64,000 nucleotides of DNA, from positions 4,687 to 68,686 of the forward strand of contig SHLP01000005.1 in the NCBI GenBank assembly GCA_004283055.1, in the 5' to 3' direction. The stretch's first letter is position 1. The number at the start of each line of letters is the position of its first letter. The translations under genes were made by a program, and so were the position numbers. This document shows positions 35,591-50,884 of the stretch, in pieces. The notes under the pieces were generated by a model. That model was not told the origin of the DNA, did not search any database, and worked only from the letters and a program-made list of their open reading frames with translations. The DNA comes from Deltaproteobacteria bacterium (GTDB taxonomy: Bacteria > Myxococcota_A > Polyangia > Polyangiales > Houyiibacteriaceae).

Positions 35591-36259
35591 TTACTCAATT
35601 TTGGTGATTCTCGTTCGCCTTCGTTTCCGCGGAAGCGGTGCTTTTTGATGGTCGAATGACTGGTGCACGACGAAGATATCATCTGCGTCGGAGAGCATTC
35701 TCAAATGGGTTGGGTGCTGCGGGATTAGATCAGGTTGACCCTGCGTGTCGAGCTTCACTACGAAGTCGGTCCCTGGTGGAGCCGAGGCTGAGAACTGCGC
35801 CACACCCTCCGAATTGGTGTGCGCAACGGTGTGCCCGTTGAGAAGGACCGGCAGGCCAGCGCCGTTGTTCGCTCGAACGATGAAAACCGCGAGCCGCTTT
35901 TCAAGTTTGCATCTGAGGGTGACTTTCAATGCGCCTCGCTGAGACTCGCCAATTCCATCCAAGGGGCGGATCCGGAAGAACTTGGGCACGGCCCCTTCGG
36001 TGTGTCCAGGCGGACAAACGCACTCGACTCTCAGTCGTTGCCCTGGCTTGCCGTCAATTTTTGCACGCAGGACGCCGTTGGAGTTGGTCTTGCCTAGGGC
36101 TTTCCCCTCGAGCTCGACAAGCACGTTGCTGAGCCGCAGGCCTCGATCCGATGCAACTTCGAAGACGACCTCGATCGCCGACTCGGGCGACAAGCGCGCG
36201 TGACAGGATGCCAACACACCGGCCGCAACGATGAGCACGTAGGGCCGCGTCAACGGCAT
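35591..36259 (-). CDS. lipoprotein of unknown function, last gene of the Tad-like operon
   Basis: ATG at 36259 gives MPLTRPYVLIVAAGVLASC, a lipobox. There are two internal ...TNSNGV.../...TNSEGV... beta-sandwich-like repeats. The track start at 36292 is GTG and would overlap the upstream gene further. Confidence 0.5.
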   Translation of the reverse strand: MPLTRPYVLIVAAGVLASCHARLSPESAIEVVFEVASDRGLRLSNVLVELEGKALGKTNSNGVLRAKIDGKPGQRLRVECVCPPGHTEGAVPKFFRIRPLDGIGESQRGALKVTLRCKLEKRLAVFIVRANNGAGLPVLLNGHTVAHTNSEGVAQFSASAPPGTDFVVKLDTQGQPDLIPQHPTHLRMLSDADDIFVVHQSFDHQKAPLPRKRRRTRITKIE

Positions 36260-36792
36260 GCGCCACGTCCGGGGCCAGAGGATGGACCGCACCTCAGCTT
36301 TGCCCTGAGCACCATGACGAAATCGCGAAACGTACGGTCATCGGGGAAAATGCTGGCGAGGGCCTCGTACTGACGGAGAGCAGCGGGAAAGTCGTTCGAT
36401 GCGATGAGTGCAGCGGCCTGCTTTTCGAGCTTCGCCCTTTGCTCGGCACTGAGCTCATTATCCGCCGAATGACGCTCCACCCGTCGTTGTTGGGGGGATT
36501 CCGGTGGCTGTGGCGCTGAGTGAGAAAGGAGCACCGCGCTGCTCTGACGAGCAGCCCGAATCTCAGTCAGCACCTCGCGCAAAGCGTCTGCAGCCTGTTG
36601 CTGTTGATGCATCACCAAGCCAAGGCCGACGAGAAGTGTGAACGCAACGCCAACCTCGATGATCTCTCGCCTGTAGCTCGATAGCATGGCCCGAGGGGTG
36701 CTCCGTGTTCGCCTTGCTCGATGCTTGGTGCGATCGACCAAAGTGTGTTCCTCGTCGCTTTCCGGGAGAATCATCGTGGGCGGCTCGTTCAT
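36250..36792 (-). CDS. single-pass membrane protein of unknown function (Tad-like operon)
   Basis: ATG at 36792 (MNEPPTMILPE) forms an ATGA overlap with the ATPase stop (36789-36792). TM segment IIEVGVAFTLLVGLGLV, then a Q-rich/coiled region and a TPR-like tail. Confidence 0.5.
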   Translation of the reverse strand: MNEPPTMILPESDEEHTLVDRTKHRARRTRSTPRAMLSSYRREIIEVGVAFTLLVGLGLVMHQQQQAADALREVLTEIRAARQSSAVLLSHSAPQPPESPQQRRVERHSADNELSAEQRAKLEKQAAALIASNDFPAALRQYEALASIFPDDRTFRDFVMVLRAKLRCGPSSGPGRGACR

Positions 36793-37787
36793 TCGACGCC
36801 CTCGATGTCTTCCAGCCGTTCGAACAAGTGCTCTAGTTGATAGCCGCTTTCTGCATCCCAACCGTGGACCTCTGAGACGTGCGTCACGAAACGCGCGCCT
36901 TCAGGGCCGCGCGAAACCTGTACAATCGTGTCCACAGCAGAGGCGATCTGAATCCGAAGAACTGCGAGCGGCACTCCTACGTCGCTCATGAGCGCCATCG
37001 TTTCCAACCGGCTCAGAGTGTCGATAGGAAGTGTGGCGTGAACCGTGGAAAGGCAGCCTCGATGACCAGAGGTCATCGCTTGAATCAGGTCGAGAGCCTC
37101 TCCGCCACGAATCTCGCCGATGACGATACGGTCGGGGCGCAATCGAAGCGTGGCCCGGAGAAGGTCGCGAATCGTTACGCCGCCCATACCGCGGACGTTT
37201 GGCGGCTGCGACTCGAGTTGTACGACGTGGCGTAGTTGAATCTGAAGCTCTTGTGAGTCTTCAATGACCACGACCCTTTCATCATCGGAAGCGAGCGATG
37301 ACAGAGCATTGAGGAAAGATGTCTTACCGGACCCACTTCCGCCTGCGATGATCACGTTGTGTTTTCGTTCAACTACGGATCGGAGCAGGGTCGAGATCTC
37401 GCGAGGGACCGAACCCAGCTCGACCAGGCGTTGGAGCGTCGGCTGCTGCCGTCGAAAGCGCCTGATGCTGACGACGGGACCCGAGGGGGCGGCTGGTGGA
37501 ATCACCGCTTGGACCCTGGATCCGTCGGGAAGCCGGGCTTCCAAGATCGGTCGCTCAGGGTTGAGCTCACGGCCCACGAACTGCGAGAGATTTCGAAGTG
37601 CTGACATCAGATCGTGTTCTGAATCAAAGCGACTGTCGGAGAGATGGAGTCGACCCTCTGTCTCCACGTAGATCTCGTCGTGTCCATTAATCATGATCTC
37701 GCTCACCTCGTCGCCGTCGAGGTAGGGCGCTACCGGGCGAAACAGCGACGCGACCGTTTGTTCGAAGACGTAGCGAGGAATTCTCAT
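36789..37787 (-). CDS. CpaF/TadA-family (T2SS-E type) secretion ATPase, short form without N-terminal domains
   Basis: Walker A GGSGSGKTS, Asp box VVVIEDSQEL, Walker B RPDRIVIGEIRGGEA, His box SGHRGCLSTVHA. ATGA overlap with the upstream gene at 37784-37787. Confidence 0.85.
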   Translation of the reverse strand: MRIPRYVFEQTVASLFRPVAPYLDGDEVSEIMINGHDEIYVETEGRLHLSDSRFDSEHDLMSALRNLSQFVGRELNPERPILEARLPDGSRVQAVIPPAAPSGPVVSIRRFRRQQPTLQRLVELGSVPREISTLLRSVVERKHNVIIAGGSGSGKTSFLNALSSLASDDERVVVIEDSQELQIQLRHVVQLESQPPNVRGMGGVTIRDLLRATLRLRPDRIVIGEIRGGEALDLIQAMTSGHRGCLSTVHATLPIDTLSRLETMALMSDVGVPLAVLRIQIASAVDTIVQVSRGPEGARFVTHVSEVHGWDAESGYQLEHLFERLEDIEGVE

Positions 37788-38476
37788 GGCGCCTGCGCCG
37801 CGGGGCTAGCGTCGACTCGAGAGGACATACGACGGGGGCCCACGCCCGCGTGGAGGCTTTCGTCGAGAAAGGACTGCGCTTCGGGGGCGTGATGTCCGTC
37901 GGGCGCAAGCTCGAGGTACTGTTCCAGCTGCGCGTTGATTTGAGCTCGGTCGTCGCCGTTGTCGCGATAGAGCATAGCTAGCCGGTAGTGAGGCAACGCC
38001 CAGTCAGGCTCAGCTCGCACGATGTATTCGAGCTCCGATTTCGCACGTGCCGAATCTCCTAGCGCTTCGTGGAGACTGGCGACGACGAGACGAAGTGACC
38101 AGTGTCTAGGATTTTCGCGAAGGTAACGGTGCGCGTGGCGCAATGCGGACTGATAGCGGCTTGCCGCAATGCAGACCCGCACCAGCCATCGAATCGCGGA
38201 CGCCTGCTCATGCCCTCGCTGTCGCGCGGCGGCTAGATACTGCTCAGCCCGCAGGAAGTCACCGGAATGCGCGTGTGAGACGCCAAGGAGAAAGAGGTCC
38301 TCCGCCGTGACGTTGGTAAGCTCCGACTGGAGCTCCGAGCTTTGATGAAGCGTTGGGTGATTACATCCGAGAGTGACCGCAAGGCATGAGGCAAGCAAGA
38401 GCCTGTGTTCTTTGTCAGAGCGTCGTGCTTGCGCGCGCTGTGGTTCTACCGACGATTTTGTTGAGCCATTCGACAT
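37784..38476 (-). CDS. TPR-repeat lipoprotein (TadD-like candidate)
   Basis: Lipobox LAVTLGC followed by TPR-like helices. GAGGAGGG sits directly before the first ATG (38482) and 7 nt before the second ATG (38476), so I favour 38476. Either start overlaps the 3' end of the upstream gene. Confidence 0.6.
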   Translation of the reverse strand: MSNGSTKSSVEPQRAQARRSDKEHRLLLASCLAVTLGCNHPTLHQSSELQSELTNVTAEDLFLLGVSHAHSGDFLRAEQYLAAARQRGHEQASAIRWLVRVCIAASRYQSALRHAHRYLRENPRHWSLRLVVASLHEALGDSARAKSELEYIVRAEPDWALPHYRLAMLYRDNGDDRAQINAQLEQYLELAPDGHHAPEAQSFLDESLHAGVGPRRMSSRVDASPAAQAP

Positions 38477-38966
38477 ACCCATCCCTCCTCAAATGCGCGG
38501 TCAGGAGAAGCAAACGATGAATCTCGCTCAGTGCATCCGACCATCGAGCCTGGTCGAGCGCTGTGACCAGGTTTAGACGCGCCGCTGCGTAGTCCGTATT
38601 GACGCGCGCAGCGATGGCGGCGTGCAAACGGCCCGCACGAACCGCGTCATCATGCGAGCCGGCGCCTCGGTAGCACGCCTCGGCTTGCGCGAAGTGGTAT
38701 GCTGCTCGAACACCGTCGCCGGCATCGTACGGATAGCGGTCCGCAAACAGAAGACCGCGCTCCTCCAAACGTCGAGCGCTTGTCACTCCCTCGTCACGAA
38801 GCGGGCAGGGCTGCACATCGGCGAAGAGCTCCGGGTAGTCGTCGAGCGCTTGCTCGTCGACGTTGGTCGACTCCCGGCCTCGAAACCATCCGATGAGAGC
38901 CGCGAGTACGCACGCCGCAAGCAAGAGGAAGAGGCCTTGCACTCGGACTGACGGAGCACTCGTCAT
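38415..38966 (-). CDS. membrane-anchored protein of unknown function (Tad-like operon)
   Basis: ATG at 38966 (MTSAPSVRVQGLFLLLAACVLAALIGWF) forms an ATGA overlap with the tadC-like stop (38963-38966). One N-terminal TM segment and a helical C-terminal part. Confidence 0.5.
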   Translation of the reverse strand: MTSAPSVRVQGLFLLLAACVLAALIGWFRGRESTNVDEQALDDYPELFADVQPCPLRDEGVTSARRLEERGLLFADRYPYDAGDGVRAAYHFAQAEACYRGAGSHDDAVRAGRLHAAIAARVNTDYAAARLNLVTALDQARWSDALSEIHRLLLLTAHLRRDGYVEWLNKIVGRTTARASTTL

Positions 38967-39877
38967 GCCGGTCCGAGCCCTCCGGTCATGAAGCGAACGA
39001 CAACCGGGCCCAGAAGCAGAGCGATCACGCATAGAAAGATCAGCGTCATCGGACCCAGCAGCATGAGTGCAGCCTCCGACGCCGTCTCTTCGGCCGCAAC
39101 GCTTCGCCGCAAACGCTGTGTTTGTGATTGAATTCGGAGAACGCGAGCGAGGGGGCTGCCTCGTTCTTCTGCTTGAACGACGCTATTTACGAACTCCCGA
39201 ACCTGATCGGTCGGAATTCGGGATGCGAGCCCCTCCATTGCGCTTCGTCGAGTGTGACCGAGGTCGAGCTCCTGCAGGACTCTCGAGAATTCCTCGATGA
39301 TGGGGTCGCTGTCATCGGACGCGCTTTGGACGATGCGTCGGAGTGAACCGGGGAAGTCCAAGCCCGCGCTCATGCACATGGACGCGAGCTCGACCGCGGC
39401 GGGAAGCCGGCGGCCTACCATCTGTGCTCTTTGCTGAGCGACACCAACGATGCGAAACCAGGGAAGGACAGCTCCGAGGCCGAGAGCTCCGACTGAAACA
39501 AGCCAAGATACGCCCAGGAACCGGCACGCAATCAGCGTCCCGCCTCCGAGGCCGAGGCCAGAGAGAAGACAGAGCGCGATCAGCTCGTCGTCGGACAGCC
39601 CGAGGTAGTCGCCCGCATACGTCAGCAGGCGGCGTACGCGTGTACGTATCTGTTCCATCCGAATCGGTGCGAGCCATGCGGCAATCAGGCGGAGCGTTGG
39701 CTCAAGCCAGGCGAAGAAGCTGCCACGACTCAAAGCTCTGGCTCGATTTAGGCCCCGAGTACCCAGGACGGGTCGCTCCGCTGCACGGATCCTTGAGAGC
39801 TCAAATGTGAAACGGGATACGCCTCCCAGGATCAGCGCAAAAACCAGCGTGAGGAAGCTATCGAACGGACCGATCAC
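38963..39877 (-). CDS. TadC-like inner-membrane platform protein (T2SS-F domain)
   Basis: T2SSF-type domain (...LPAAVELASMCMSAGLDFPGSLRRI...) flanked by TM helices. GTG at 39877 forms a GTGA overlap with the tadB-like stop; the track start is 39925. Confidence 0.8.
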   Translation of the reverse strand: MIGPFDSFLTLVFALILGGVSRFTFELSRIRAAERPVLGTRGLNRARALSRGSFFAWLEPTLRLIAAWLAPIRMEQIRTRVRRLLTYAGDYLGLSDDELIALCLLSGLGLGGGTLIACRFLGVSWLVSVGALGLGAVLPWFRIVGVAQQRAQMVGRRLPAAVELASMCMSAGLDFPGSLRRIVQSASDDSDPIIEEFSRVLQELDLGHTRRSAMEGLASRIPTDQVREFVNSVVQAEERGSPLARVLRIQSQTQRLRRSVAAEETASEAALMLLGPMTLIFLCVIALLLGPVVVRFMTGGLGPA

Positions 39878-40730
39878 AAGTCGACCTTCGCGATGTGATG
39901 AGCCCAGACCGTAGCGAAGATCCACAGCAGGGCGCAGGTTGCGAGGAGTGCCTGACCAAGCTTCTGATTCAGCATTGGCTCGAACCAGGACCTATCGAGC
40001 CACGCGATCATGATGCAAAGAAGAAAGGGCACGGAGGCCAGGACCAGAACCTGCCCACGGCCCTCGGCTGTTCTGGACCGAAGCACGCCCTCGAGCCTCG
40101 CGGATTCCCGAAGGGCCTCCGACGCATGCTCCAAAGTCTTGGACAAGTCGCCACCGGTCTGACGTGCAACCACGATCGTCGCTAGGGCTCCAGAAATCGC
40201 GGTGCTGTCTATTCGTCGGGCGAGAGCGTTGATCGCGCGATCGAGCGGCGCACCTAATCGGATCTCTTTGACCAGTAGGTCGACCTCTGCACTAAACGGC
40301 TTGGGCATCAATGAAACGGTCGAAGCAATCGCTTCTCCAACGGAGGAGGTCGCTTTGAGCGCATTGGCCAACATGAGTAACCACGTATCGAGCTGACGTT
40401 CGAGTTGCTCGACGCGCGCGCGGTGACGCTTCCACAAAACGAACGGCGGCGCCGCCGCAGCCAAGAACATGAGAAGGGCAAACACCGAACTTCGAGTGAC
40501 CGCACTCATGCCTGCCAAAGCAGAGCAGGTGATGAGTTGTGCCAACGCGATTTGTGACCCTCGGTAGCGGAGCAAGAGAAAACTCGAGTGCCGTTCGAGT
40601 CGCTCGGCGTAGCGTCCCCATCGCCGCTGCGCGAAGTTTCCTTCGATGGAGAACGAGAGATACGTGATGGCCGCACAGCCGCAGACGAGAAAAACAGCCG
40701 ACGAAATGAGAAGCGGGAGGGCATCGAGCC

Positions 40731-40734
<4 letters not shown>
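39874..40734 (-). CDS. TadB-like inner-membrane platform protein (T2SS-F domain)
   Basis: T2SSF-type domain (...LDTWLLMLANALKATSSVGEAIASTV...) plus TM helices. GTG at 40734 forms a GTGA overlap with the ATPase stop. Confidence 0.8.
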
Positions 40735-42310
<1,576 letters not shown>

Positions 42311-42314
<4 letters not shown>

Positions 42315-43456
42315 CTCTCTCCTTCAACCGTGGAGGCGGTGGAACGCCCAACGCGAGGCTGATCCAGGAGGTGGTGGTCGTCGACATGACCCCGGAAGCT
42401 CTCGTATACACGAAGCGCCTCTTCGACTCGGTCTCTTTGACTCAAGCTGACTGGCTCGATGACCGAAGGAACCACGAACATGTACGACTGGTCGTCTTCG
42501 ATCTCGCGGGAATGCGTACCGAAGAGCGCGCCGATGAATGGAGCGAGAGCCAAGCCTGGGATTCCGCTTCTCCTTCGCCTCTCGGTGCGTGCGCGAATTC
42601 CAGCTAGGGAAACGGACTGACCCAGCTCGAGATTCACCAAGGTTTCGATGTGTGAAGTGATGCGGCCGGGAATCCCTCTCGCTCCTTTTTCCGAATCTAG
42701 GTCGGACACGTCAGCCACGATTTCAAGCTCGATGCGACCAGTCTTGGAATCGTACGTAGGGAGAACACTGACCTTCGTCCCGAACTCGATGGCCTGCACG
42801 TTCACGGTCAAATTGTTTTGGACTTGAACGTTGAACTCCCCGCCGGAGGTGAACACGGCTTCGGTGCCATTGGCAGTCACCAAGGTGGCTTGACGGTACA
42901 GCTTCGCCCACCCTTTAGCCTGTGCGAGGTCGAAGCTCGGCAGGAACGTCTGCGGCAGAATTTGAAACGCGCTCTGTGTGGCTTGTCCGCTGCCGCCCGT
43001 AATCGCGATGGCGGCCTCGGAAGGCCCGAGGGTGCTACCGATGTTCCCGGGCCAGTTGAGCCCAATTTGGTGCCCATAGCGGTCCTGGATCAGTACGAAA
43101 TACAAGTCCAATCGGATGTTCTCCCGTCCTCCAAATCCCTTTGTCGCATCTGCTGGAATGACTCGAATTGTGTACTGCAGCTGGTTGCCGTCGCTCTTGA
43201 TCAGCAGCAACGAAGTCGCGCCCTCCTGCTTGCCAACCAGCACGAAGCGACTCTGGTCGCGCGTGATTCGGATGTCGGCGAAGCCAGGTGCACCCTCGGA
43301 GTAGCTTTTGATGCCTCGCGCGGACAGGCTCTTCTGCTCACCGACTCGCAGGGTGATCGAACGCTCGGCGTCGAGATCGGCTCTAGCTTCAGCCTCGAGC
43401 GCCCCGGAAACGAGGACAAGCGTTGCGAGCGCGAACCTGTTCGCGAGGATAGTCAT
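42311..43456 (-). CDS. CpaC/RcpA-like outer-membrane secretin
   Basis: Signal peptide MTILANRFALATLVLVSGALEAEA. N-terminal BON/pilus-formation-like domain. Secretin C-domain ending ...RRSGIPGLALAPFIGALFGTHSREIEDDQSYMFVVPSVI. Confidence 0.85.
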
Positions 43457-43457
43457 C

Positions 43458-44219
43458 TTAGTCGACCCTCTCGATCCTCAATCGCCGTTGGCGACGAGCT
43501 CGCTTCTCTTGTTCGAGCACGTCGGAGTCGTCGGTCTCCGGGAGACCTTCATTGATCTCCAGATCGTTTTCGTTGCGGAGGAGGAGACTCAAGCTCGAAT
43601 CACGTCGGGCCTGGGCAAGCAGGCTAGCCTGGTCGATCGTGACCAGAAGCGTGACGGGGTCCGATCGAAGCGAGGAGTCGTGGAGGTCTGCCGCTGCGAA
43701 TCGGGCACCGACGGCGAGAACCAGAATATTCTGCAGAAGGGGGATCGTGACGACGCTTGCCTCCGAGCCTGGCTTTGCCTTGGTGAGCAGGACGTCGACC
43801 CGATCGCCGGGACGTATCAGCGGAGCCAGGTTTCGTCTTCCCGCGGCGTCGATGCTGATCGCCCGCATGCCTTTTGGGATGCGGCTCGACAGCGAGCTCC
43901 GATCGCTTGGAGTAGTCGACAGGTCGGTCCAGAGTAGAGTCTGGTTCGCCTCGAGCGCGATGGATGCGCGGACTCCCAGGACCCGTGGAAGTGCGCTGGC
44001 GAGGACTTGACGTTCCTCGACGTAACTCTCGGGCAAGGCTCTCACGAGCAACATCTCCTCGGTTAGAGGAACACCTGCCGCGACGTTCTGACTCGTAACG
44101 AGCAATGCGATGGGATCACCGCCGGTCGCATCTCGCTGAAACTCCCGCACGTAAGCAAAAAGAAGCACAAAGCCCAGGGCGGCGACGATGGCGGATGCGA
44201 GGAGGGCGGTTCGGTTCAT
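43458..44219 (-). CDS. CpaB/RcpC-like pilus assembly protein
   Basis: N-terminal TM segment, SAF-like domain (...VTSQNVAAGVPLTEEML...) and RcpC-like C-domain (...IRPGDRVDVLLT...LLQNILVLAVG...). Confidence 0.85.
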   Translation of the reverse strand: MNRTALLASAIVAALGFVLLFAYVREFQRDATGGDPIALLVTSQNVAAGVPLTEEMLLVRALPESYVEERQVLASALPRVLGVRASIALEANQTLLWTDLSTTPSDRSSLSSRIPKGMRAISIDAAGRRNLAPLIRPGDRVDVLLTKAKPGSEASVVTIPLLQNILVLAVGARFAAADLHDSSLRSDPVTLLVTIDQASLLAQARRDSSLSLLLRNENDLEINEGLPETDDSDVLEQEKRARRQRRLRIERVD

Positions 44220-44235
44220 GGACGGTGGACCCTGG

Positions 44236-45096
44236 TCACGACGGTTGAGAGATCAGTATGGAGACGACGGTGGCGGAGGCGTCGCTGGAATGGGCGAGAA
44301 CAGTGACGGTGCGATTCGCGCGCTCGGCCGAAATGGTACGGATGCCGTCGATCACGAACGCCTCGGAAGGATGCCGCTCGATGATCGTCCAGCCGTTTGC
44401 CGAGAGCTGAGTTCGGTAGAACGACTCGAGCGCAGCTGCCGACTCCTGCAGCACCCGGTACACGACGAAACCGCTGGGCGACCCCACCTCCCATGCGGAC
44501 AAGAGCCGCTGCGAGCTCTGAGGGCGGGGGACTGATTCGATGTCTTTGCCTGCTGCTTCGGCCCCGTCGAGGGCTAACATTCGAAAGACGGGAAAGGCGG
44601 AATCGGCCCAAACCGTGAGAACGAACGTCCGGTCGCCGGACGTGCCGGACACCCGGCGCGCGCGCGCGTATCGAAGCCCTCCCAGCTCGGTCAGGTTTCC
44701 GGTCTGGGAGAAGCGAACAAACCGACCTGCGAGCGCCCGCAGATTTCGCGGCGCATCGCCCATGTCGAGACACGCAACGTGACCTCCGTCTTTGCCGCGG
44801 TGCGATTGCATGGAGAGCCGCTCGGCGATTCCCGCACCAGCGCCGATGCAGAGCGACTCGTAGTGTCCAAGAACGTCCTCTAGCGGCGCTGCGACTGTTT
44901 GGGTACGAAACGAAATCGGCACGCCGTTCAACTGCAGGACCCGTGCTCTGCCCGGAGGCGTGCCGGGATAACTCATGGATTCAGCTCCCCCGCTCGATAG
45001 GAACCCCGCAACCTCGGCATCGGCCGAGCGCAGCAGGACCGCGGAGCCGAGGGCTCCGAAGGCGAGAAGGAACAGCCCAAGCCGCAGCAGCGGCAT
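44236..45096 (-). CDS. exported protein of unknown function (Tad-like operon)
   Basis: ATG at 45096 gives MPLLRLGLFLLAFGALGSAVLLRSADA, a signal peptide. The track start at 45117 is GTG and would overlap the upstream stop at 45101. I recognise no family. Confidence 0.5.
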   Translation of the reverse strand: MPLLRLGLFLLAFGALGSAVLLRSADAEVAGFLSSGGAESMSYPGTPPGRARVLQLNGVPISFRTQTVAAPLEDVLGHYESLCIGAGAGIAERLSMQSHRGKDGGHVACLDMGDAPRNLRALAGRFVRFSQTGNLTELGGLRYARARRVSGTSGDRTFVLTVWADSAFPVFRMLALDGAEAAGKDIESVPRPQSSQRLLSAWEVGSPSGFVVYRVLQESAAALESFYRTQLSANGWTIIERHPSEAFVIDGIRTISAERANRTVTVLAHSSDASATVVSILISQPS

Positions 45097-45100
45097 CGTT

Positions 45101-45634
45101 CTATCGGCACACTTCACGCGCGTACTCCGTGTTTTGCAGACCCGTGTGGCAGGCGTGCTCCAGGACGTTGCCCGCTCCTCGGGCGGTCCGAGCCGTGGTG
45201 TTGCAGAGCAGGGTCGTCACTCCATGCTGCGAGCCGATCGCGGGGCTCAGCATCGTCGGCATCGAGGATTTAGCTGAGCCCACCCCGTTCGTCGCCTGGC
45301 CCAGAAAGAAGCGGCCGAGGTTTCCGAGAAAGGAATCCAAGGACAGGCGGCCGTCGCGCACTGTGAGCAGGTCATCGAGACCACCGGCGCGAAGCTCGCC
45401 TTCGATGCGACCGCACTCCCCGCTTCGACAGCTTTGCGTGGGACATTCGCCCGAGTCGGCCTGCAGCCACGCCATTCGCCTGGCGCGAGACTTCGCTTCT
45501 AGCTTTGCTCCGTACATCCCATTGAGGCCGATCACCCCTGCCAAACAGGCTACAAACACCGGGAGACTAATCAGGGCTTCCAGCATCGCGGTTCCGCTTT
45601 CGTCGCTCAGCAATTGTCGAATGGATGCACCCAT
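45101..45634 (-). CDS. TadE-like pseudopilin
   Basis: ATG at 45634 gives MGASIRQLLSDESGTAMLEALISLPVFVACLAGV, a TadE N-terminal motif followed by a hydrophobic helix. The track start at 45868 would overlap the upstream gene by more than 200 nt. Confidence 0.65.
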   Translation of the reverse strand: MGASIRQLLSDESGTAMLEALISLPVFVACLAGVIGLNGMYGAKLEAKSRARRMAWLQADSGECPTQSCRSGECGRIEGELRAGGLDDLLTVRDGRLSLDSFLGNLGRFFLGQATNGVGSAKSSMPTMLSPAIGSQHGVTTLLCNTTARTARGAGNVLEHACHTGLQNTEYAREVCR

Positions 45635-45641
45635 GATGTCC

Positions 45642-46850
45642 TCAGTGGGCAGAGACCGCGTTGATGGAAAAATCACGGGCAACGTCACAAATACCCGAGA
45701 GCCCTTCGAGCGACCCCCGCCCTCTCGCGGCCGAACAAGCGCTGAGAATTCCGCTGGGGATCCAACTCCGCGAAATTCGAAACCTCCGAAGCCGTGCGCG
45801 CCACCTCTGTTTCCAGAGCCATTCGGCTTTGTGCTCAGTGCCGTCGAAATAGTACTCGGCCTGAGCAAACGCGAGGCGTCCTACGACGTGCGCCTCGTGG
45901 ATGGAGCTCCGTCCGTCTGTCCCACCGCCCTGTGCGATTCGAACGCCCCGCTCGCCGTTTCGCCAATGACTCCGATGGGGGTCGTGGCCGATGGCGTACG
46001 CCCGGTATTGGAATTCCTCGTGCCCAAGCCATACGGGAGTTTCATCACCTCGGGTTTCAATCACGCGGCGAGGTGACTCGACTACGTCGTCTGCACACGT
46101 TCGTCGTTTTCCAAGTCGAAGTGCCTGGCCGACTACGCCCCCGAGAAACCTGAGAAGCCAACGGGGAACCCTCGATCTCACATTCCTCAGCCTGTTGCTC
46201 AGCCCATCGGCGACTCGATCGCAGACGACGCCGAGCTCGTCCTCCTCGACGGGAAGCCCCCGACCGCCGCCCGGAAGACGCGAACCGAGAAGCGGGACGA
46301 CAAAGCCCCCCGAAACCGGGGGGTCGTAGGCAGCCTGAAAAGCCATCGCATCGACCGCCCGCGCTTCGGCAAGCAGCGGGTACGTATGCTGAACCACCTT
46401 GTGAGCGGCATTCAACGCGTGATGAGCCGTCCGAACGAACTGCTCGACCGCGTCGCCGACCCTTTCTACCGTACTCTCGACGGGGCTGAGCGCGGCGATG
46501 AGCGCGGACGCCTTCGCCGCCAGGAGGACTGTCGCGACCAAGCCGTACAGAATCCCGAGAGTGATCTCGAGCAGCACCTCGACGCTGCGAATGACGAGCA
46601 GGATGCCGGCGGTTACGGCCATCACCACATTGAGTAAGACATGAAGGTTCATCCCCTTCGCGCCCATCACTGATGCCGCGTACGCACCGGCATCGGCGCC
46701 GTCTTGCATGATGCGCCGGTACACGACGGCGTCGCCTACGCCGAGGATGTAGTAGAGAGCCCCTATGAGAAGGAGCGCCATGAAGAGGGACATCAGCATC
46801 ATGGCGCCTCGCGTATCGTCCAGAAGGCGGGCTCGATTCAAATGCCTCAT
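45642..46850 (-). CDS. TadG-like pilus assembly protein
   Basis: N-terminus ...DDTRGAMMLMSLFMALLLIGALYYILGVGDAV matches the TadE/G-like N-terminal motif. About 400 aa. ATGA overlap with the upstream gene at 46847-46850. Confidence 0.65.
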   Translation of the reverse strand: MRHLNRARLLDDTRGAMMLMSLFMALLLIGALYYILGVGDAVVYRRIMQDGADAGAYAASVMGAKGMNLHVLLNVVMAVTAGILLVIRSVEVLLEITLGILYGLVATVLLAAKASALIAALSPVESTVERVGDAVEQFVRTAHHALNAAHKVVQHTYPLLAEARAVDAMAFQAAYDPPVSGGFVVPLLGSRLPGGGRGLPVEEDELGVVCDRVADGLSNRLRNVRSRVPRWLLRFLGGVVGQALRLGKRRTCADDVVESPRRVIETRGDETPVWLGHEEFQYRAYAIGHDPHRSHWRNGERGVRIAQGGGTDGRSSIHEAHVVGRLAFAQAEYYFDGTEHKAEWLWKQRWRARLRRFRISRSWIPSGILSACSAARGRGSLEGLSGICDVARDFSINAVSAH

Positions 46851-47638
46851 GAACGCCTCGGACGATACTCGTAGGGTGCGTCATGGATGAGCAGCGTGGT
46901 TTCGTGCTGTAGACCCCGAAATCGACCCCCGACGATAGACTGCGCCAGCGGGAAGAACGCTCCGCCGATCTCTTCTCGAGCCGCGAGGTCCGCGAACGAG
47001 CGACAAAGAATTTTTCGCGCAAGGGGCACCGTGCACTGAAAGGCATAGGTCACCCTCACGGTGATCTCTGGCTGGTCGGCTACGCTTCCCTGAAGCCCCG
47101 GAAACGTCACCGCTAGGGCAAACGGCTGATAGTACAGCGCAGATAAGAGCCTACGCTGAGTTCCGATTGCCTTGGCAATACTGGGCTGCGAATCGCGACC
47201 GACATTTTCAGGTGCTAGAGGCATCAGCGGCACGTGTGCGGCCAGCCGAATCGTGTTGAGGCGCGACCTTCCAAGGTTCACCAAGGCCGCCGAGGAAAAG
47301 GCGCGGGATAGACCTGCTCCGCTCGCGCCGACCTGTGCGGCAGAACCGATTTGCTCGAGCGCGAGACCGAGATCGGCCGCCGTCACGGCGTTGCGGGCCA
47401 CGCTCATTTTCGCTTCGCCGCCGTACTCGTTGGGGTCGTCAGGCAGGACGACTGCGGCCGATCGCGCGGCTGAGTCAGCCGAGTGCTTCACGATGAGGTC
47501 CGCATGGGCAATGAAGGCGAGCTGGAGGATGCATAGGAAGAACGACCACATCGGAACGAATGCGATGAGGAGCTCGAGGAAGACGACGCCGCGCTTGTCA
47601 GCAAATAGGGAGCCAGAACTTGACGAGACCACCGTCAC
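46847..47638 (-). CDS. TadE/TadF-like pseudopilin
   Basis: ...DKRGVVFLELLIAFVPMWSFFLCIL is a TadE-like N-terminal motif. GTG at 47638 forms a GTGA overlap with the peptidase stop; the alternative GTG at 47650 is the track start. Confidence 0.65.
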   Translation of the reverse strand: MTVVSSSSGSLFADKRGVVFLELLIAFVPMWSFFLCILQLAFIAHADLIVKHSADSAARSAAVVLPDDPNEYGGEAKMSVARNAVTAADLGLALEQIGSAAQVGASGAGLSRAFSSAALVNLGRSRLNTIRLAAHVPLMPLAPENVGRDSQPSIAKAIGTQRRLLSALYYQPFALAVTFPGLQGSVADQPEITVRVTYAFQCTVPLARKILCRSFADLAAREEIGGAFFPLAQSIVGGRFRGLQHETTLLIHDAPYEYRPRRS

Positions 47639-48180
47639 AGACCCGCCCACCCAAACAGGAGATGCGGCGCGGTGAGGATCCCGGTCGCGGCGAAGACCGG
47701 AGCGCCCATGCGAATGGGCGCAACTAGCTCATCGCACGGGTCGCGACGCCAACGTTGCGGAAGCACGGGGCCCAACGCGACCGCCCAGGCGTTCCCTAGA
47801 GTTCTGGTTAACGCCCCTTTCCATGCCAGCGAGGCACTGGTGACGATCAAGGCTGCCACGAGTGCCGCGAGCTGGATTTCGACGCCGAGCAGCAGGTCGA
47901 AGCCCATCACCGCACCAAGTGCGCCAAAGAGCTTGACGTCGCCGCCCCCCATCGCGCCGCGGCGAAAGAGCAGGTACGGGACCAAGCCGGCCAAGAATGC
48001 AGCCGCGAGGCTGTGAAGTGCGTATTCGACGCCGAACGCGAGTCCGTAGCTCGCCGGCGCCAGCAGTAGGGCCGGAAGCGTCAGCCAATTCGGGATTTCA
48101 CCTCGTCGCCAATCCCAAAACGCGGCTGTTGCGGCGACAAACAAAGCGAGGCTCGCAGCGATGGTTACGCCGGTCTCCAT
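47635..48180 (-). CDS. A24-family prepilin peptidase (CpaA/TadV-like)
   Basis: ATG at 48180 (METGVTIAASLALFVAATAAFWDWRRGEIPN...). Both catalytic Asp contexts are present (DWRRGEIPN and GGGDVKL). The upstream 194 codons of the track ORF 47635..48762 read through flp in another frame and are rejected. Confidence 0.85.
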   Translation of the reverse strand: METGVTIAASLALFVAATAAFWDWRRGEIPNWLTLPALLLAPASYGLAFGVEYALHSLAAAFLAGLVPYLLFRRGAMGGGDVKLFGALGAVMGFDLLLGVEIQLAALVAALIVTSASLAWKGALTRTLGNAWAVALGPVLPQRWRRDPCDELVAPIRMGAPVFAATGILTAPHLLFGWAGL

Positions 48181-48191
48181 CCCACATTCCT

Positions 48192-48377
48192 CTACTGCAC
48201 GACGTCCGCGATGTATCCGTCGGCTGCTTCGACCTCGCCGATTAAGGTCTCGCCAAATTGCTGCCAAGCCGCGATGCCGACAACGGCGATCAAACCGAGC
48301 ACGATGATGTACTCGACTGTGGTCAGTCCCCGCTTGTCCGATAGCAACGTTTTCTCGATTTCTGCTTTGTCTTTCAT
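48192..48377 (-). CDS. flp: Flp/Fap-family type IVb prepilin
   Basis: MKDKAEIEKTLLSDKRG|LTTVEYIIVLGLIAVVGIAAW carries the G-X4-EY Flp processing motif followed by a hydrophobic helix. GAGAGGAAGG Shine-Dalgarno upstream. Confidence 0.85.
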   Translation of the reverse strand: MKDKAEIEKTLLSDKRGLTTVEYIIVLGLIAVVGIAAWQQFGETLIGEVEAADGYIADVVQ

Positions 48378-48392
48378 GACTGCCTTCCTCTC

Positions 48393-48527
48393 TCAGGGCA
48401 CCGGCAAAAGGATGAAGAGTTTCGTGATATAAAAAGCCTGGACGAGGGGTACGCCGAGGCCGTAGAGCGCGAGGCCGACCGCCAGAACGACGACCCCTGT
48501 GAGCAACGCGTATTCGGCGAACACCAT
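48393..48527 (-). CDS. candidate 44-aa leaderless Flp-like hydrophobic peptide (not in ORF track)
   Basis: Hand translation: MVFAEYALLTGVVVLAVGLALYGLGVPLVQAFYITKLFILLPVP. ATG is cat at 48525-48527, with an in-frame TGA 9 nt upstream; the stop is tca at 48393-48395, 15 nt before the flp ATG. About 35 of 44 codons end in G/C. There is no clear Shine-Dalgarno. Confidence 0.35.
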   Translation of the reverse strand: MVFAEYALLTGVVVLAVGLALYGLGVPLVQAFYITKLFILLPVP

Positions 48528-48620: not shown

Positions 48621-48725
48621 CCGGTTTTGCCGGACTTGGTTCAAGACTCGAATAAAGAATTGCGTATGGACGGTTGTGGCGGCCGCGCCTATACAAAGCT
48701 TCTTTCCAGCGAGCGACCCGTACCC

Positions 48726-49154
48726 ATGGCCTCCTTGAGCAAGAACGCAGTGATTCATGCACCGCCGGACCCCGTGTTCGCGTACGTCAGCGATCCTTCC
48801 AAGTTCCCCGAGTGGCTTCCGAGCATGGTCGAGGTTCGAAATGTCCTCGGTGCGGGCGCCGGGCAACAGTACGAGTGGACCTACAAAATGGCCGGAATGC
48901 TTCTTCGGGGGCAGAGCACCGTAGTCGAATACACCCCGAATCAACGCGTCGTGCTTCAGAGCATCGGCTCGATTGGCAGCGATTGGACCTTCACCGTCGA
49001 GCCGCACGAAGCAGGGGCGCTTCTGCGTATCGAGGTCGAATACAGCGTCCCCGTCCCGGTCTTAGGCAGGCTGGCCGAAAGGCTCGCGCTGAGCCGAGAC
49101 GCTCGTGAGTTCGCGGTCGGGTTTGACAATCTCAAAGAGGCTCTAGAGGGCTAG
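48726..49154 (+). CDS. SRPBCC-superfamily protein (copy 1 of tandem pair)
   Basis: MASLSKNAVIHAPPDPVFAYVSDPSKFPEWLPSMVEVRNV...QQYEWTYKMAGMLL... has a polyketide-cyclase/START-like fold pattern. ATG at 48726. Confidence 0.7.
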   Translation: MASLSKNAVIHAPPDPVFAYVSDPSKFPEWLPSMVEVRNVLGAGAGQQYEWTYKMAGMLLRGQSTVVEYTPNQRVVLQSIGSIGSDWTFTVEPHEAGALLRIEVEYSVPVPVLGRLAERLALSRDAREFAVGFDNLKEALEG

Positions 49155-49174: not shown

Positions 49175-49603
49175 GTGCCTAGTTGGAAGAACAGCATCGT
49201 GATTCAAGCGCCGCCGGACCGCGTGTTCGCCTACGTCAGCGATCCTTCCAATTTCCCTGAGTGGATCCCGAGCATGGTGGAGATTCGGGACGTGATCGGG
49301 ACAGGCGCCGGGCAGCAGTACGAGTGGACCTACAAAATGGCTGGGATTCTGCTGCATGGGGAGGGCGTCGTCGTTGAGCACGTTCCCCAGGAGCGCTCGG
49401 TGCATCAGAACATCGGCATGATCGAAGCACACGTCGCATTCAGCGTCGAGCCCCACGAGGAGGGAGCGGCGCTGACCCTCGGGGTCGACTACGGCATTCC
49501 GATTCCCGTGCTCGGCAGGCTGGCAGAACGCATCGTGACGAGGCGGAACGAGCGGGAGTTCCAGCTGGCGCTCGACAACGCCAAAGAGCTGTTCGAAGCC
49601 TGA
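49175..49603 (+). CDS. SRPBCC-superfamily protein (copy 2 of tandem pair)
   Basis: GTG start at 49175 with GAGGAGGAG 9-10 nt upstream. Collinear with copy 1 (IQAPPDRVFAYVSDPSNFPEWIPSMVEIRDV...QQYEWTYKMAGILL...PVLGRLAER...). Confidence 0.7.
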   Translation: MPSWKNSIVIQAPPDRVFAYVSDPSNFPEWIPSMVEIRDVIGTGAGQQYEWTYKMAGILLHGEGVVVEHVPQERSVHQNIGMIEAHVAFSVEPHEEGAALTLGVDYGIPIPVLGRLAERIVTRRNEREFQLALDNAKELFEA

Positions 49604-50862: not shown

Positions 50863-50884
50863 AGGCGGGAGCAGCGCCGATCGC

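What the first reader, a model, noticed from the sequence alone, without database searches (positions are those of the whole stretch)
36789..37787. Second, N-terminally minimal CpaF/TadA-family ATPase in the same pilus operon
This 332-aa protein keeps every catalytic box: Walker A GGSGSGKTS, Asp box VVVIEDSQEL, Walker B RPDRIVIGEIRGGEA and His box SGHRGCLSTVHA. It lacks the roughly 190-aa FHA plus N-domain region of the 527-aa paralogue at 40731-42314. In the best-studied Tad systems a single CpaF/TadA motor is thought to power both extension and retraction. Two intact motors in one operon suggest three possibilities: a division of labour like PilB/PilT in type IVa pili, a dedicated motor for a second substrate, or a regulatory hetero-hexamer.
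Basis: partly seen in the sequence, partly recalled or inferred. Interest (0 to 1): 0.7.

Follow-up and report, generated by a model that had tools for sequence, protein, structure and literature searches.

The report
Conserved second, stripped-down Tad pilus ATPase
A myxobacterial Tad/Kil-type pilus operon carries, besides its normal motor ATPase, a second, strongly conserved and apparently active motor-type ATPase that lacks the N-terminal parts thought indispensable for this family, which challenges the view that Tad pili always run on one motor.

Summary
ORF 36789-37787 lies on the minus strand and encodes a 332-aa CpaF/TadA-type ATPase with every catalytic box. It sits in one translationally coupled Tad/Kil-like operon with a 527-aa FHA-CpaF.

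It is not a decaying copy.
- In 92 orthologues all catalytic residues and the trans-acting arginine are invariant.
- dN/dS is about 0.1, the same as for the long motor.
- In 61 of 63 Polyangia genomes with enough flank, the long paralogue lies about 3 kb upstream.
- Cultured Sandaracinus amylolyticus has the same gene order.

It belongs to a distinct CpaF subfamily, not a recent in-operon duplicate. This subfamily lacks the three-helix bundle and the hinge glycines. The acidic tip of its platform-facing Central Loop is replaced, mostly by Arg/Lys. The same subfamily sits at the head of two other Tad loci and also occurs as orphans.

The window has only one TadB/TadC pair. I found no paper that describes a second motor inside a Tad locus.

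The most likely reading is an accessory second motor on the same machine, analogous to PilT but not a PilT homologue. Its actual role is inferred, not shown.

Verdict: new variant of a known kind, interest about 0.62.

The parts
36789..37787 (-). Short ATPase (332 aa): a CpaF-like protein with NTD2 + C-terminal ATPase domain only, plus a one-helix remnant of the three-helix bundle at residues 5-15.
   Evidence: T2SSE E=6e-55. Aligns without gaps to Caulobacter CpaF 148-444. AF2 pLDDT 85. Best Foldseek hit is CpaF (E=4e-37). Catalytic residues are invariant in 92 orthologues.
40731..42314 (-). Long ATPase (527 aa): FHA + linker + three-helix bundle + NTD2 + ATPase domain + C-terminal tail. This is the KilF-like / class III CpaF architecture.
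   Evidence: FHA E=6e-13, T2SSE E=3e-61. Aligns to CpaF 87-476. 53% core identity to Caulobacter CpaF.
39874..40734 (-). TadB-like inner-membrane platform protein (286 aa).
   Evidence: T2SSF E=3.5e-11. It is one of only two T2SSF genes in the window.
38963..39925 (-). TadC-like inner-membrane platform protein (320 aa).
   Evidence: T2SSF E=4e-16.
38415..39032 (-). Conserved 205-aa protein with one predicted membrane helix. No family assigned.
   Evidence: no Pfam hit. Conserved in position across the Polyangia loci.
37784..38482 (-). TPR protein with a lipobox-like N-terminus (..LGC..), in the position of TadD. Its stop codon overlaps the start of the short ATPase (ATGA).
   Evidence: (several TPR families).
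36250..36792 (-). About 180-aa protein with a basic N-terminus, one membrane helix and a TPR-like C-terminal hairpin. The likely start is the ATG that overlaps the stop of the short ATPase. In more distant genomes this slot holds a 514-542-aa FHA-domain protein.
   Evidence: (the tblastn match starts at residue 24 of the longest ORF).
35591..36292 (-). Predicted lipoprotein (233 aa, lipobox ..LASC..), the last gene of the operon. It is a conserved downstream companion of the short ATPase, and also accompanies it in a locus without Tad core genes.
   Evidence: L081: 28% identity, E=7e-19; 47 of 64 loci.
42311..43456 (-). CpaC/RcpA-type secretin (381 aa).
   Evidence: Secretin E=3e-25; T2SS-T3SS_pil_N E=3e-8.
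43458..44219 (-). CpaB/RcpC (253 aa).
   Evidence: RcpC E=3e-22.
44236..47650 (-). Three conserved operon genes (293, 402 and 267 aa) with no Pfam assignment. They lie where the TadE/F/G-like minor pilins lie in related loci.
   Evidence: no hits. Related loci L086 and L089 carry Tad/TadE-annotated genes in this position.
47635..48180 (-). Prepilin peptidase (A24 family). The longest ORF runs to 48762, but the domain and the membrane part start near residue 195.
   Evidence: (Peptidase_A24 E=2e-16, residues 207-306).
48192..48377 (-). Flp-type pilin (61 aa, ...RGLTTVEYIIVLGLIAV...).
   Evidence: Flp_Fap E=2e-5, below the Pfam cut-off; the motif is visible in the sequence.

Best explanation
The 332-aa protein is a functional, ATP-hydrolysing, ring-forming ATPase of a distinct CpaF subfamily that lacks the three-helix bundle (3HB). 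[quoted passage not shown]

The proposed mechanism is inferred, not shown. It acts as a second motor on the same machine as the long FHA-CpaF. It docks, with altered contacts, to the single TadB/TadC platform or its accessory membrane proteins. There it drives a step that the long motor does not drive, most plausibly filament disassembly/retraction or a switch of direction. That would be a division of labour analogous to PilB/PilT, evolved independently inside the Tad lineage.

Shown: family identity, architecture, intact catalytic and trans-arginine residues, purifying selection, conserved synteny, a single platform pair, and altered platform-facing residues.

Inferred: hexamer formation, the docking partner, and which step it drives.
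For: (1) Family. The best solved relative is Caulobacter CpaF (273 bits, against VirB11 127 and PilT about 33). The best NCBIfam model is the TadA family. The best Foldseek hit is CpaF.

(2) Active enzyme working in a ring. In 92/92 orthologues the following are invariant: the Walker A Lys, Asp-box E/D/E, Walker B Glu, both His, and the inter-subunit Arg equivalent to CpaF R347.

(3) Selection. dN/dS is 0.09-0.13, against 0.08-0.11 for the long motor. Mean divergence across 55 genomes is identical (0.48 and 0.48).

(4) Fixed operon member. There are ATGA overlaps at both ends. In 61 of 63 loci with enough flank the FHA-CpaF lies about 3 kb upstream in the same gene order. Sandaracinus amylolyticus DSM 53668 has the same order. 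Its distance matrix tracks those of the other operon genes (r = 0.78-0.84).

(5) Two motors, one platform. Only two T2SSE genes and one TadB/TadC pair are present in 64 kb.

(6) Same subfamily in other Tad loci. Members lie at the head of two differently arranged Tad loci that also hold a full-length CpaF (L086, L088). The link to Tad machines is therefore recurrent.

(7) PilT-like reduction. The protein is NTD2 + ATPase domain only and matches the whole length of VirB11 (TMt 0.65-0.72).

(8) A conserved but re-specified docking surface. The Helix 5/Loop 8 segment is the most conserved part of NTD2, but it has its own signature. The Central-Loop position equivalent to E331 is Arg/Lys in 75/92 orthologues, against Glu in 60/63 long orthologues.
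Against: Three elements that the CpaF papers implicate in platform coupling are missing or changed. The 3HB is absent: its deletion abolished function, or gave no detectable expression, in C. crescentus (PMC12019362, PMC11300603). The Loop 8 Asp (D208) is relaxed to D35/N25/S22. The Central-Loop Glu (E331) is charge-reversed. This could mean that the protein does not dock to TadB/TadC at all.

Some subfamily members are orphans or lie in non-Tad contexts (L081, L083, L085).

A Kil-like locus with an FHA-CpaF but no short ATPase exists (L089), and the M. xanthus Kil clusters list one ATPase. The short protein is therefore not needed for every such machine.

In M. xanthus the Kil pilus extends and retracts, and the only motor assigned to it is KilF, its 'predicted polymerization / depolymerization ATPase' (PMC12075869).

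In Bdellovibrio the extra tadA2 was dispensable for predation.
Confidence: 0.4

Rival explanations
1. Separate module. The short ATPase does not act on TadB/TadC. It works with its own conserved neighbours: the TPR lipoprotein upstream, the membrane or FHA protein downstream, and the lipoprotein after that. It would energise a different step, such as effector or tip-protein delivery, secretin or envelope-complex assembly, or gating. That is a VirB11-like 'traffic ATPase' role attached to the pilus machine.
For: All three platform-coupling elements of CpaF are missing or changed: 3HB, D208 and E331.

The set TPR - short ATPase - ~200-aa protein - lipoprotein recurs in L081/L082 with no Tad core gene within 10 kb, and the lipoprotein there is homologous (E=7e-19).

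The lipoprotein follows the short gene in 47 of 64 loci.

In most Polyangia the next gene encodes an FHA protein.

Overall size and fold cover VirB11 completely.
Against: No alternative platform or substrate gene has been identified. The neighbours have no assigned function.

PilT genes are also often unlinked from their machines, so orphan locations do not exclude a Tad role.

The same subfamily sits in two other Tad loci with different neighbours.

The VirB11/TrbB models score below their cut-offs, and no T4SS genes are present.
Confidence: 0.28
2. Regulatory partner of the long motor. The short protein forms mixed rings with the FHA-CpaF, or stacks or competes with it, and so tunes its activity or direction. 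It would not be a motor in its own right.
For: The trans-acting arginine and the ring-interface architecture are retained.

The two ATPases evolve at equal rates. They show the highest partial correlation of distances among operon pairs (0.46, against 0.42 for TadB-TadC).

The short protein lacks its own FHA input, whereas the long one has it fused.
Against: Core identity between the two is only 38-40%, and they fall in different clades. That makes interchangeable subunits less likely.

A full set of invariant catalytic residues is not needed for a pure regulator.

Orphan members exist without a partner nearby.

The mirror-tree signal is weak evidence, because both proteins are slow-evolving ATPases.
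Confidence: 0.14
3. Redundant or condition-specific spare motor. It is a paralogue that can substitute for, or is used instead of, the long motor under some conditions, with no distinct mechanism. The dispensable tadA2 of Bdellovibrio would be the model.
For: The Bdellovibrio rcpA2-tadA2 module is dispensable under the tested conditions. Kil-like loci without the short gene exist.
Against: Simple redundancy does not predict strict synteny in 61/63 genomes, translational coupling, a dN/dS equal to the main motor, or a subfamily-specific conserved surface. Loss of the 3HB argues against simple substitution for the long motor.
Confidence: 0.1
4. Non-functional remnant or annotation artefact: a truncated pseudogene copy of the neighbouring ATPase.
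For: It is shorter than the family's stated minimum architecture (PMC12019362).
Against: - More than 100 clusters have the same length.
- Catalytic residues are invariant.
- dN/dS is about 0.1.
- It is not sister to the neighbour.
- The AF2 model is confident.
Confidence: 0.01

Closest known systems
CpaF/TadA, the Tad pilus motor ATPase (Caulobacter crescentus CpaF, PDB 8RKD/9E24; A. actinomycetemcomitans TadA)
   Same: It is the closest relative by sequence, profile and predicted fold. NTD2 and the ATPase domain align without gaps to CpaF 148-444. All catalytic boxes and R347 are present. It is encoded in a Tad operon.
   Different: - No disordered region and no three-helix bundle. The 3HB-NTD-CAD arrangement is described as the minimum architecture across bacteria (PMC12019362).
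- The hinge-1 G-x-G is lost.
- Central-Loop E331 is changed to Arg/Lys, and Loop 8 D208 is relaxed.
- The C-terminal tail is missing.
- It co-exists with a full-length CpaF in the same operon, whereas Tad is described as a single-motor system.
KilF and the Kil (Tad-like) predation system of Myxococcus xanthus
   Same: The LONG paralogue shares the FHA-CpaF fusion. The locus shares CpaB, a CpaC-type secretin, the TadB/C-like platform and Flp pilins. No TadZ/CpaE gene lies in the operon. The host phylum is Myxococcota.
   Different: The Kil system is split into two clusters and lists a single ATPase (PMC8460266). Here everything lies in one operon, which also carries the additional short ATPase with its TPR, membrane and lipoprotein companions. 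No KilD-like gene follows the long ATPase.
PilT/PilU (and BfpF-type) retraction ATPases of type IVa/IVb pili
   Same: The protein has two domains and lacks the N-terminal extensions of the assembly ATPase. It co-exists with a longer assembly-type paralogue and one platform. The proposed antagonistic role is the analogy.
   Different: It is not a PilT homologue in the family sense. TIGR01420 scores 43.5 bits against a cut-off of 319, and Foldseek gives about E=1e-15 against 4e-37 for CpaF. The published ATPase duplications are PilB/PilT and PilT/PilU only, none inside Tad (PMC6668835). Retraction activity is untested.
VirB11/TrbB traffic ATPases of type IV secretion
   Same: Similar size and two-domain fold, with the whole of HP0525 covered (TMt 0.65-0.72). 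These are the second-best profile matches.
   Different: Scores are below the family cut-offs (206 < 250 and 196 < 305). No T4SS genes are nearby. Sequence is clearly closer to CpaF (273 against 127 bits).
Extra TadA paralogues of Bdellovibrio bacteriovorus (tadA2, tadA3) and second tad clusters of rhizobia/Micrococcus
   Same: More than one TadA-type ATPase in one genome.
   Different: Those lie in separate loci or duplicated modules (PMC10934763, PMC4322843 were listed but not read in depth). They are not a 3HB-less protein embedded in the same operon as the main motor.

Membership tests
PilT/VirB11-like secretion ATPase superfamily (Pfam T2SSE, PF00437) | Walker A, Asp box, Walker B and His box within a T2SSE domain | tested here: met
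   (E=6e-55, 186.8 bits against a cut-off of 24.9). Motifs read. Invariant in 92 orthologues.
CpaF/TadA subfamily | Closer to CpaF/TadA than to PilB, PilT, GspE, VirB11 or FlaI by sequence and fold | tested here: met
   (CpaF 273 bits; VirB11 127; AfGspE 125; FlaI 97; PilB/PilT <= 47). (the TadA-family model scores best). (Foldseek).
CpaF/TadA subfamily | Curated NCBIfam cut-off of the TadA-family model TIGR03819 | tested here: not met
   276.7 bits against a cut-off of 373.15. The long paralogue also fails (334.9). This model is an actinobacterial 'hypoth_equivalog', so failing it says little.
CpaF/TadA subfamily | Minimum domain architecture 3HB-NTD-CAD (PMC12019362) with the hinge-1 G147/G149 | tested here: not met
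   the alignment starts at CpaF 148, and only a remnant of the last 3HB helix remains (residues 5-15). G147 becomes L/F and G149 becomes A across the family.
CpaF/TadA subfamily | Platform-facing conserved residues: Loop 8 D208 and Central Loop E331-G-x-G (PMC11300603) | tested here: not met
   D208 is D35/N25/S22 (N in the window). E331 is R49/K26 of 92 (R in the window). G332 and G334 are kept; the same holds in the wider short subfamily.
CpaF/TadA subfamily | Encoded with tadB/tadC in a Tad locus | tested here: met
   same operon, three genes downstream of tadC. Conserved in 61/63 loci.
CpaF/TadA subfamily | Hexameric ATPase that powers Flp pilus extension/retraction | not testable with these tools
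   Only indirect evidence: the invariant trans-arginine R347 equivalent implies an oligomeric active site.
PilT/PilU retraction ATPases | Membership of the PilT family by profile (TIGR01420) | tested here: not met
   43.5 bits against a cut-off of 319.1. PilT structures score about E=1e-15, far behind CpaF.
PilT/PilU retraction ATPases | Two-domain protein co-existing with a longer assembly ATPase and a single platform | tested here: met
   (two T2SSE genes, one TadB/TadC pair in 64 kb). (architecture). This is an analogy, not homology at family level.
PilT/PilU retraction ATPases | Drives pilus retraction | not testable with these tools
   Needs genetics and pilus imaging.
VirB11/TrbB (T4SS) | Curated profile cut-offs, and T4SS genes in the neighbourhood | tested here: not met
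   (205.8 < 249.95 and 196.2 < 304.55); the neighbours are Tad components, and there are no VirB/Trb genes.
Kil-type Tad-like system (M. xanthus) | FHA-fused CpaF, CpaB, secretin, TadB/C-like platform and Flp pilin; no TadZ | tested here: met
   for the locus. This applies to the long paralogue and the operon, not to the short protein.
Kil-type Tad-like system (M. xanthus) | Single ATPase (PMC8460266 discussion) | tested here: not met
   Two T2SSE genes in the operon.
Kil-type Tad-like system (M. xanthus) | Contact-dependent prey killing | not testable with these tools
   No functional data exist for Polyangia loci.

The most novel reading that the evidence does not exclude
The Tad lineage, held to be a one-motor system, has independently evolved a dedicated second motor in Polyangia and in some other bacteria. 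This is a 3HB-less CpaF subfamily that takes over retraction or direction switching on the shared TadB/TadC platform. It would be a convergent counterpart of PilT, arising from a different branch of the ATPase tree.
Probability: 0.25. Interest if true: 0.8.

Novelty: new variant of a known kind. Interest (0 to 1): 0.62.

Why it matters
Current models of Tad pili rest on one bifunctional motor, CpaF, whose three-helix bundle is considered part of the minimum architecture. How one ATPase both extends and retracts the filament is an open question.

A clade of Tad/Kil-like machines keeps a second, bundle-less but catalytically intact CpaF-type ATPase, under the same selective constraint as the main motor. 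This provides a natural comparison for three questions:
- Which features of CpaF are needed for platform coupling?
- Has division of labour evolved twice in type IV filament systems?
- How are myxobacterial predation-type pili controlled, given the FHA proteins and Ser/Thr kinases nearby?

A cultured, fully sequenced host (Sandaracinus amylolyticus DSM 53668) carries the locus, so the idea can be tested.

If the protein instead serves a separate export or assembly step, it would define a new accessory module of Tad systems.

Tried and rejected
- Mis-called start or gene fragment: rejected. The ORF starts at the first start codon after a stop, and the 332-aa length is constant in over 100 clusters.
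- Recent tandem duplicate of the long ATPase: rejected. The long clade (bootstrap 93) nests among full-length CpaFs. The long protein is 53% identical to Caulobacter CpaF but only 38% identical to the short one. The deep nodes of my neighbour-joining tree are weak, so an early burst of change after an old duplication cannot be excluded.
- PilT or VirB11 family membership: rejected by profile scores.
- Pseudo-ATPase: rejected.
- A second platform gene for the second motor: none in the window.
- Promoter/terminator scan of the operon: uninformative. It found 0 promoter-like sites, and 17 terminator-like sites against 12.8 expected.
- Pfam gave nothing for the 205-aa, 233-aa, 267-aa, 293-aa and 402-aa operon proteins.
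- Homology of the ~180-aa downstream protein to the 542-aa FHA protein of S. amylolyticus: only a weak match at the C-terminal hairpin, in the corresponding position (E about 0.3-0.4). Not established.
- Mirror-tree analysis: shows co-inheritance with the operon but cannot identify the partner.
- Complex prediction (ATPase with platform): not possible, because the structure tool takes single chains only.
- The meaning of Pfam PF27713 (UCP018868), pre-computed on many members, was not resolved.
Full report
**1. Observation**

The ORF at 36789..37787 is real but lies on the minus strand. It has an ATG start, 332 codons and a TGA stop. It matches Pfam T2SSE at E=6e-55.

The paralogue at 40731..42314 (minus strand, 527 aa) is FHA + T2SSE. 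The two are 40% identical over 321 residues, with short residue 3 aligned to long residue 165. The short protein therefore lacks about 162 N-terminal residues.

The ORF cannot be extended upstream. More than 100 homologue clusters have the same 332-aa length.

**2. The locus**

All genes from about 48.4 kb down to 35.6 kb are on the minus strand. In order they are:
- a Flp-like pilin (48192..48377);
- an A24 prepilin peptidase;
- three unassigned genes;
- CpaB/RcpC;
- a CpaC-type secretin;
- the FHA-CpaF;
- TadB and TadC;
- a 205-aa membrane protein;
- a TPR lipoprotein in the TadD position;
- the short ATPase;
- a ~180-aa membrane/TPR-like protein;
- a 233-aa lipoprotein.

An unrelated amine oxidase follows.

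The stop of the TPR gene overlaps the start of the short gene (ccATGAga). The stop of the short gene overlaps the start of the next gene (gaATGAac). The short gene is thus an integral, translationally coupled operon member.

The 64-kb window holds only these two T2SSE genes and one TadB/TadC pair. No TadZ/CpaE-like gene is in the operon.

**3. What the short protein is**

Its closest solved relative is Caulobacter CpaF: 273 bits, with a gapless alignment of residues 16-312 to CpaF 148-444. VirB11 (127 bits), archaeal GspE (125) and FlaI (97) are well behind, and PilB/PilT/GspE score 47 or less. The best NCBIfam model is the TadA family. All curated cut-offs are missed, including those of VirB11, TrbB and PilT.

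An AF2 model built from 32 family members is confident (pLDDT 85.4, pTM 0.79). Its best Foldseek hits are the CpaF structures (E=4e-37). PilT scores about E=1e-15. The model spans the whole of VirB11 (TMt 0.65-0.72).

In CpaF terms the protein is NTD2 plus the C-terminal ATPase domain. It also keeps a single N-terminal helix (residues 5-15) that aligns with the end of the third helix of the three-helix bundle.

The long paralogue aligns to CpaF 87-476, so it has the bundle and the C-terminal tail. It is the 'class III' FHA architecture of PMC12019362 and the KilF-type architecture of PMC8460266.

**4. Is it functional?**

I assembled 92 orthologues: 80 genome loci, sampled database proteins and 2 cluster representatives.

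In all 92 the following are invariant:
- the Walker A Lys;
- Asp-box E308/D309/E312;
- Walker B E357;
- R347, R349 and R359;
- both His-box histidines.

R347 acts across subunits in CpaF (PMC12019362). Its invariance therefore implies a ring-type active site.

dN/dS against six close orthologues is 0.09-0.13. The long motor gives 0.08-0.11 and TadB 0.09-0.16. Across 55 genomes the mean corrected distance is 0.48 for both ATPases, about half that of the other operon proteins.

**5. Conservation of the arrangement**

A scan of one genome per species found 298 species with a relative. The best 80 loci are all Myxococcota metagenome-assembled genomes: Polyangiales, Sandaracinaceae, Kofleriaceae and unclassified. 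Their short proteins are 52-86% identical to the window's.

In 61 of the 63 loci with at least 5.2 kb of upstream flank, the FHA-CpaF lies about 3 kb upstream. The gene order is CpaB - secretin - long - TadB - TadC - 205 aa - TPR - short. One locus (L075) has the short module moved upstream of CpaB.

The lipoprotein follows the short gene in 47 of 64 loci.

A second protein search found the orthologue in cultured Sandaracinus amylolyticus DSM 53668 (P0396, 395 aa). The gene order there is the same. The next gene encodes a 542-aa FHA protein, followed by a 239-aa lipoprotein. In the window's subclade this FHA protein is replaced by the ~180-aa protein.

The short protein's distance matrix correlates with those of the other operon proteins as well as the long motor's does (r = 0.78-0.84). 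This indicates co-inheritance rather than separate transfer.

**6. Origin and subfamily**

I built a neighbour-joining tree of 315 core domains: the short and long orthologues, 150 representatives from a 1.8-billion-protein library, Caulobacter CpaF, and archaeal GspE and FlaI as outgroup.

- The long orthologues form one clade (bootstrap 93) among full-length CpaFs.
- The short orthologues fall in a different group (bootstrap 60 for the 122-member group), together with other proteins of 330-395 aa whose alignment starts at their first residues.
- Core identities are short-long 38%, short-CpaF 39% and long-CpaF 53%.

The short gene is therefore not a recent truncated copy of its neighbour. Deep nodes are weakly supported, so an old duplication followed by a burst of change is not excluded.

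The wider short group shares three features:
- loss of the hinge-1 G-x-G;
- a Loop 8 signature AQ[FY]VG[RK];
- a non-acidic residue at the Central-Loop position of CpaF E331. It is Arg/Lys in 75 of 92 short orthologues, against Glu in 60 of 63 long orthologues.

In CpaF, the mutations D208K and E331K/G332A/S333A/G334A abolish function. These loops are modelled to contact CpaG/CpaH (PMC11300603). The bundle is modelled to contact the N-terminal helices of the platform proteins, and its deletion gave no detectable protein in vivo (PMC12019362, PMC11300603).

In the short family D208 is relaxed (D35/N25/S22). Even so, the Helix 5/Loop 8 segment is the most conserved stretch of NTD2. The surface is kept but re-specified.

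**7. Other contexts of the subfamily**

- L086: Ser/Thr kinase - short ATPase (378 aa) - three small ORFs - A24 peptidase - Tad/TadE-like genes - RcpC - CpaF (499 aa) - TadB - TadC - FHA protein.
- L088: a similar arrangement, with a truncated 285-aa copy.
- L081/L082: TPR (124 aa) - short (343 aa) - 208 aa - lipoprotein homologous to the window's (E=7e-19), with no Tad core gene within 10 kb.
- L083 (named Planctomycetaceae by one source): an orphan.
- L085: follows a DnaJ-TPR protein.
- L089: conversely, a Kil-like locus with an FHA-CpaF of 702 aa and several FHA proteins but no short ATPase.

The subfamily has therefore joined Tad loci in at least two gene orders. It is neither restricted to Tad loci nor required by all FHA-CpaF loci.

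**8. Literature**

- Tad pili are described as single-motor systems with a bifunctional CpaF (PMC6920026, PMC11300603, PMC12019362).
- The catalogue of type IV filament evolution recognises ATPase duplications only for PilB/PilT and PilT/PilU (PMC6668835).
- The M. xanthus Kil clusters list one ATPase, KilF (supplement).
- Bdellovibrio has tadA2 and tadA3 in other loci, and tadA2 is dispensable.
- A comparative study reports Tad(kil)-like genes in Sandaracinus, Chondromyces, Minicystis and Labilithrix, without mention of a second ATPase.

Searches for a second or paralogous CpaF/TadA within a locus found nothing else. Databases name the protein 'CpaF family protein'.

**9. Mechanism**

Shown: a conserved, selected, catalytically intact, ring-type CpaF-like ATPase without the bundle, co-inherited with one TadB/TadC pair and a full-length FHA-CpaF.

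Inferred, as the best reading at about 0.4: it is a second motor of the same machine. It docks with changed contacts and drives a step complementary to the long motor, most simply disassembly or direction switching, by analogy with PilT.

Rivals:
- a separate module working with its TPR, membrane/FHA and lipoprotein neighbours (about 0.28). The loss of all three platform-coupling elements and the Tad-free L081 module favour this.
- a regulatory mixed or competing ring with the long motor (about 0.14);
- a spare motor (about 0.1);
- a remnant (about 0.01).

None can be decided without genetics or complex modelling.

**10. Verdict**

It is a new variant of a known kind. Its role is open.

Noticed in passing
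window 50885..52282 (-): An FHA + sigma-54 interaction domain enhancer-binding protein (Sigma54_activat E=1.5e-69, FHA E=1.5e-14) lies about 2.5 kb upstream of the pilin end of the operon. It is a candidate regulator. Together with the FHA-CpaF it points to phospho-threonine signalling.
   Followed up: partly
window 48627..49154 (+) and 49175..49603 (+): Two tandem paralogous SRPBCC/polyketide-cyclase-like genes sit on the opposite strand, between the pilin genes and a YkuD L,D-transpeptidase gene (49609..51180, -).
   Followed up: partly
window 48393..48527 (-): A 44-aa hydrophobic ORF lies directly upstream of the Flp pilin gene. It may be a second Flp-like pilin. It has no Pfam hit and its start is uncertain.
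   Followed up: no
L048 11119..12663, L087 11242..12870, L051 11170..12762: In most of the more distant Polyangia, the gene after the short ATPase encodes a 514-542-aa protein with an N-terminal FHA domain. In the window's subclade that slot holds a ~180-aa protein. Only a weak C-terminal resemblance links the two (E about 0.3-0.4).
   Followed up: partly
L086 7584..10004 and L087 14044..17967: Large Ser/Thr protein kinase genes lie next to, or near, the short-ATPase genes in two unrelated loci. This fits the many FHA proteins in these systems.
   Followed up: no
P0121 (1156 aa), P0122 (1605 aa), P0123, P0124 in the representative library: Some proteins carry two to four consecutive CpaF-like ATPase domains in one polypeptide. 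They may be fusions, or merged gene calls from frameshifted assemblies.
   Followed up: no
L081 2931..8768: A 5.8-kb stretch upstream of the orphan short-ATPase module has no called genes and only one ORF of 150 aa or more, with no Ns. It may be an rRNA operon or other non-coding DNA.
   Followed up: no
L070 10001..10979; L001 5480..7049: The short gene in L070 and the long gene in L001 are split into two frames. These are probably indel errors in long-read metagenome assemblies rather than pseudogenes.
   Followed up: no
L075 8538..16679: One locus has a rearranged order: the TPR - short ATPase pair lies upstream of CpaB - secretin - FHA-CpaF - TadB - TadC. The short module can therefore move as a unit within the locus.
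   Followed up: no
short-family proteins: Many members carry a pre-computed hit to Pfam PF27713 (UCP018868). The Pfam copy searched here did not report it, and I could not find out what that family describes.
   Followed up: no
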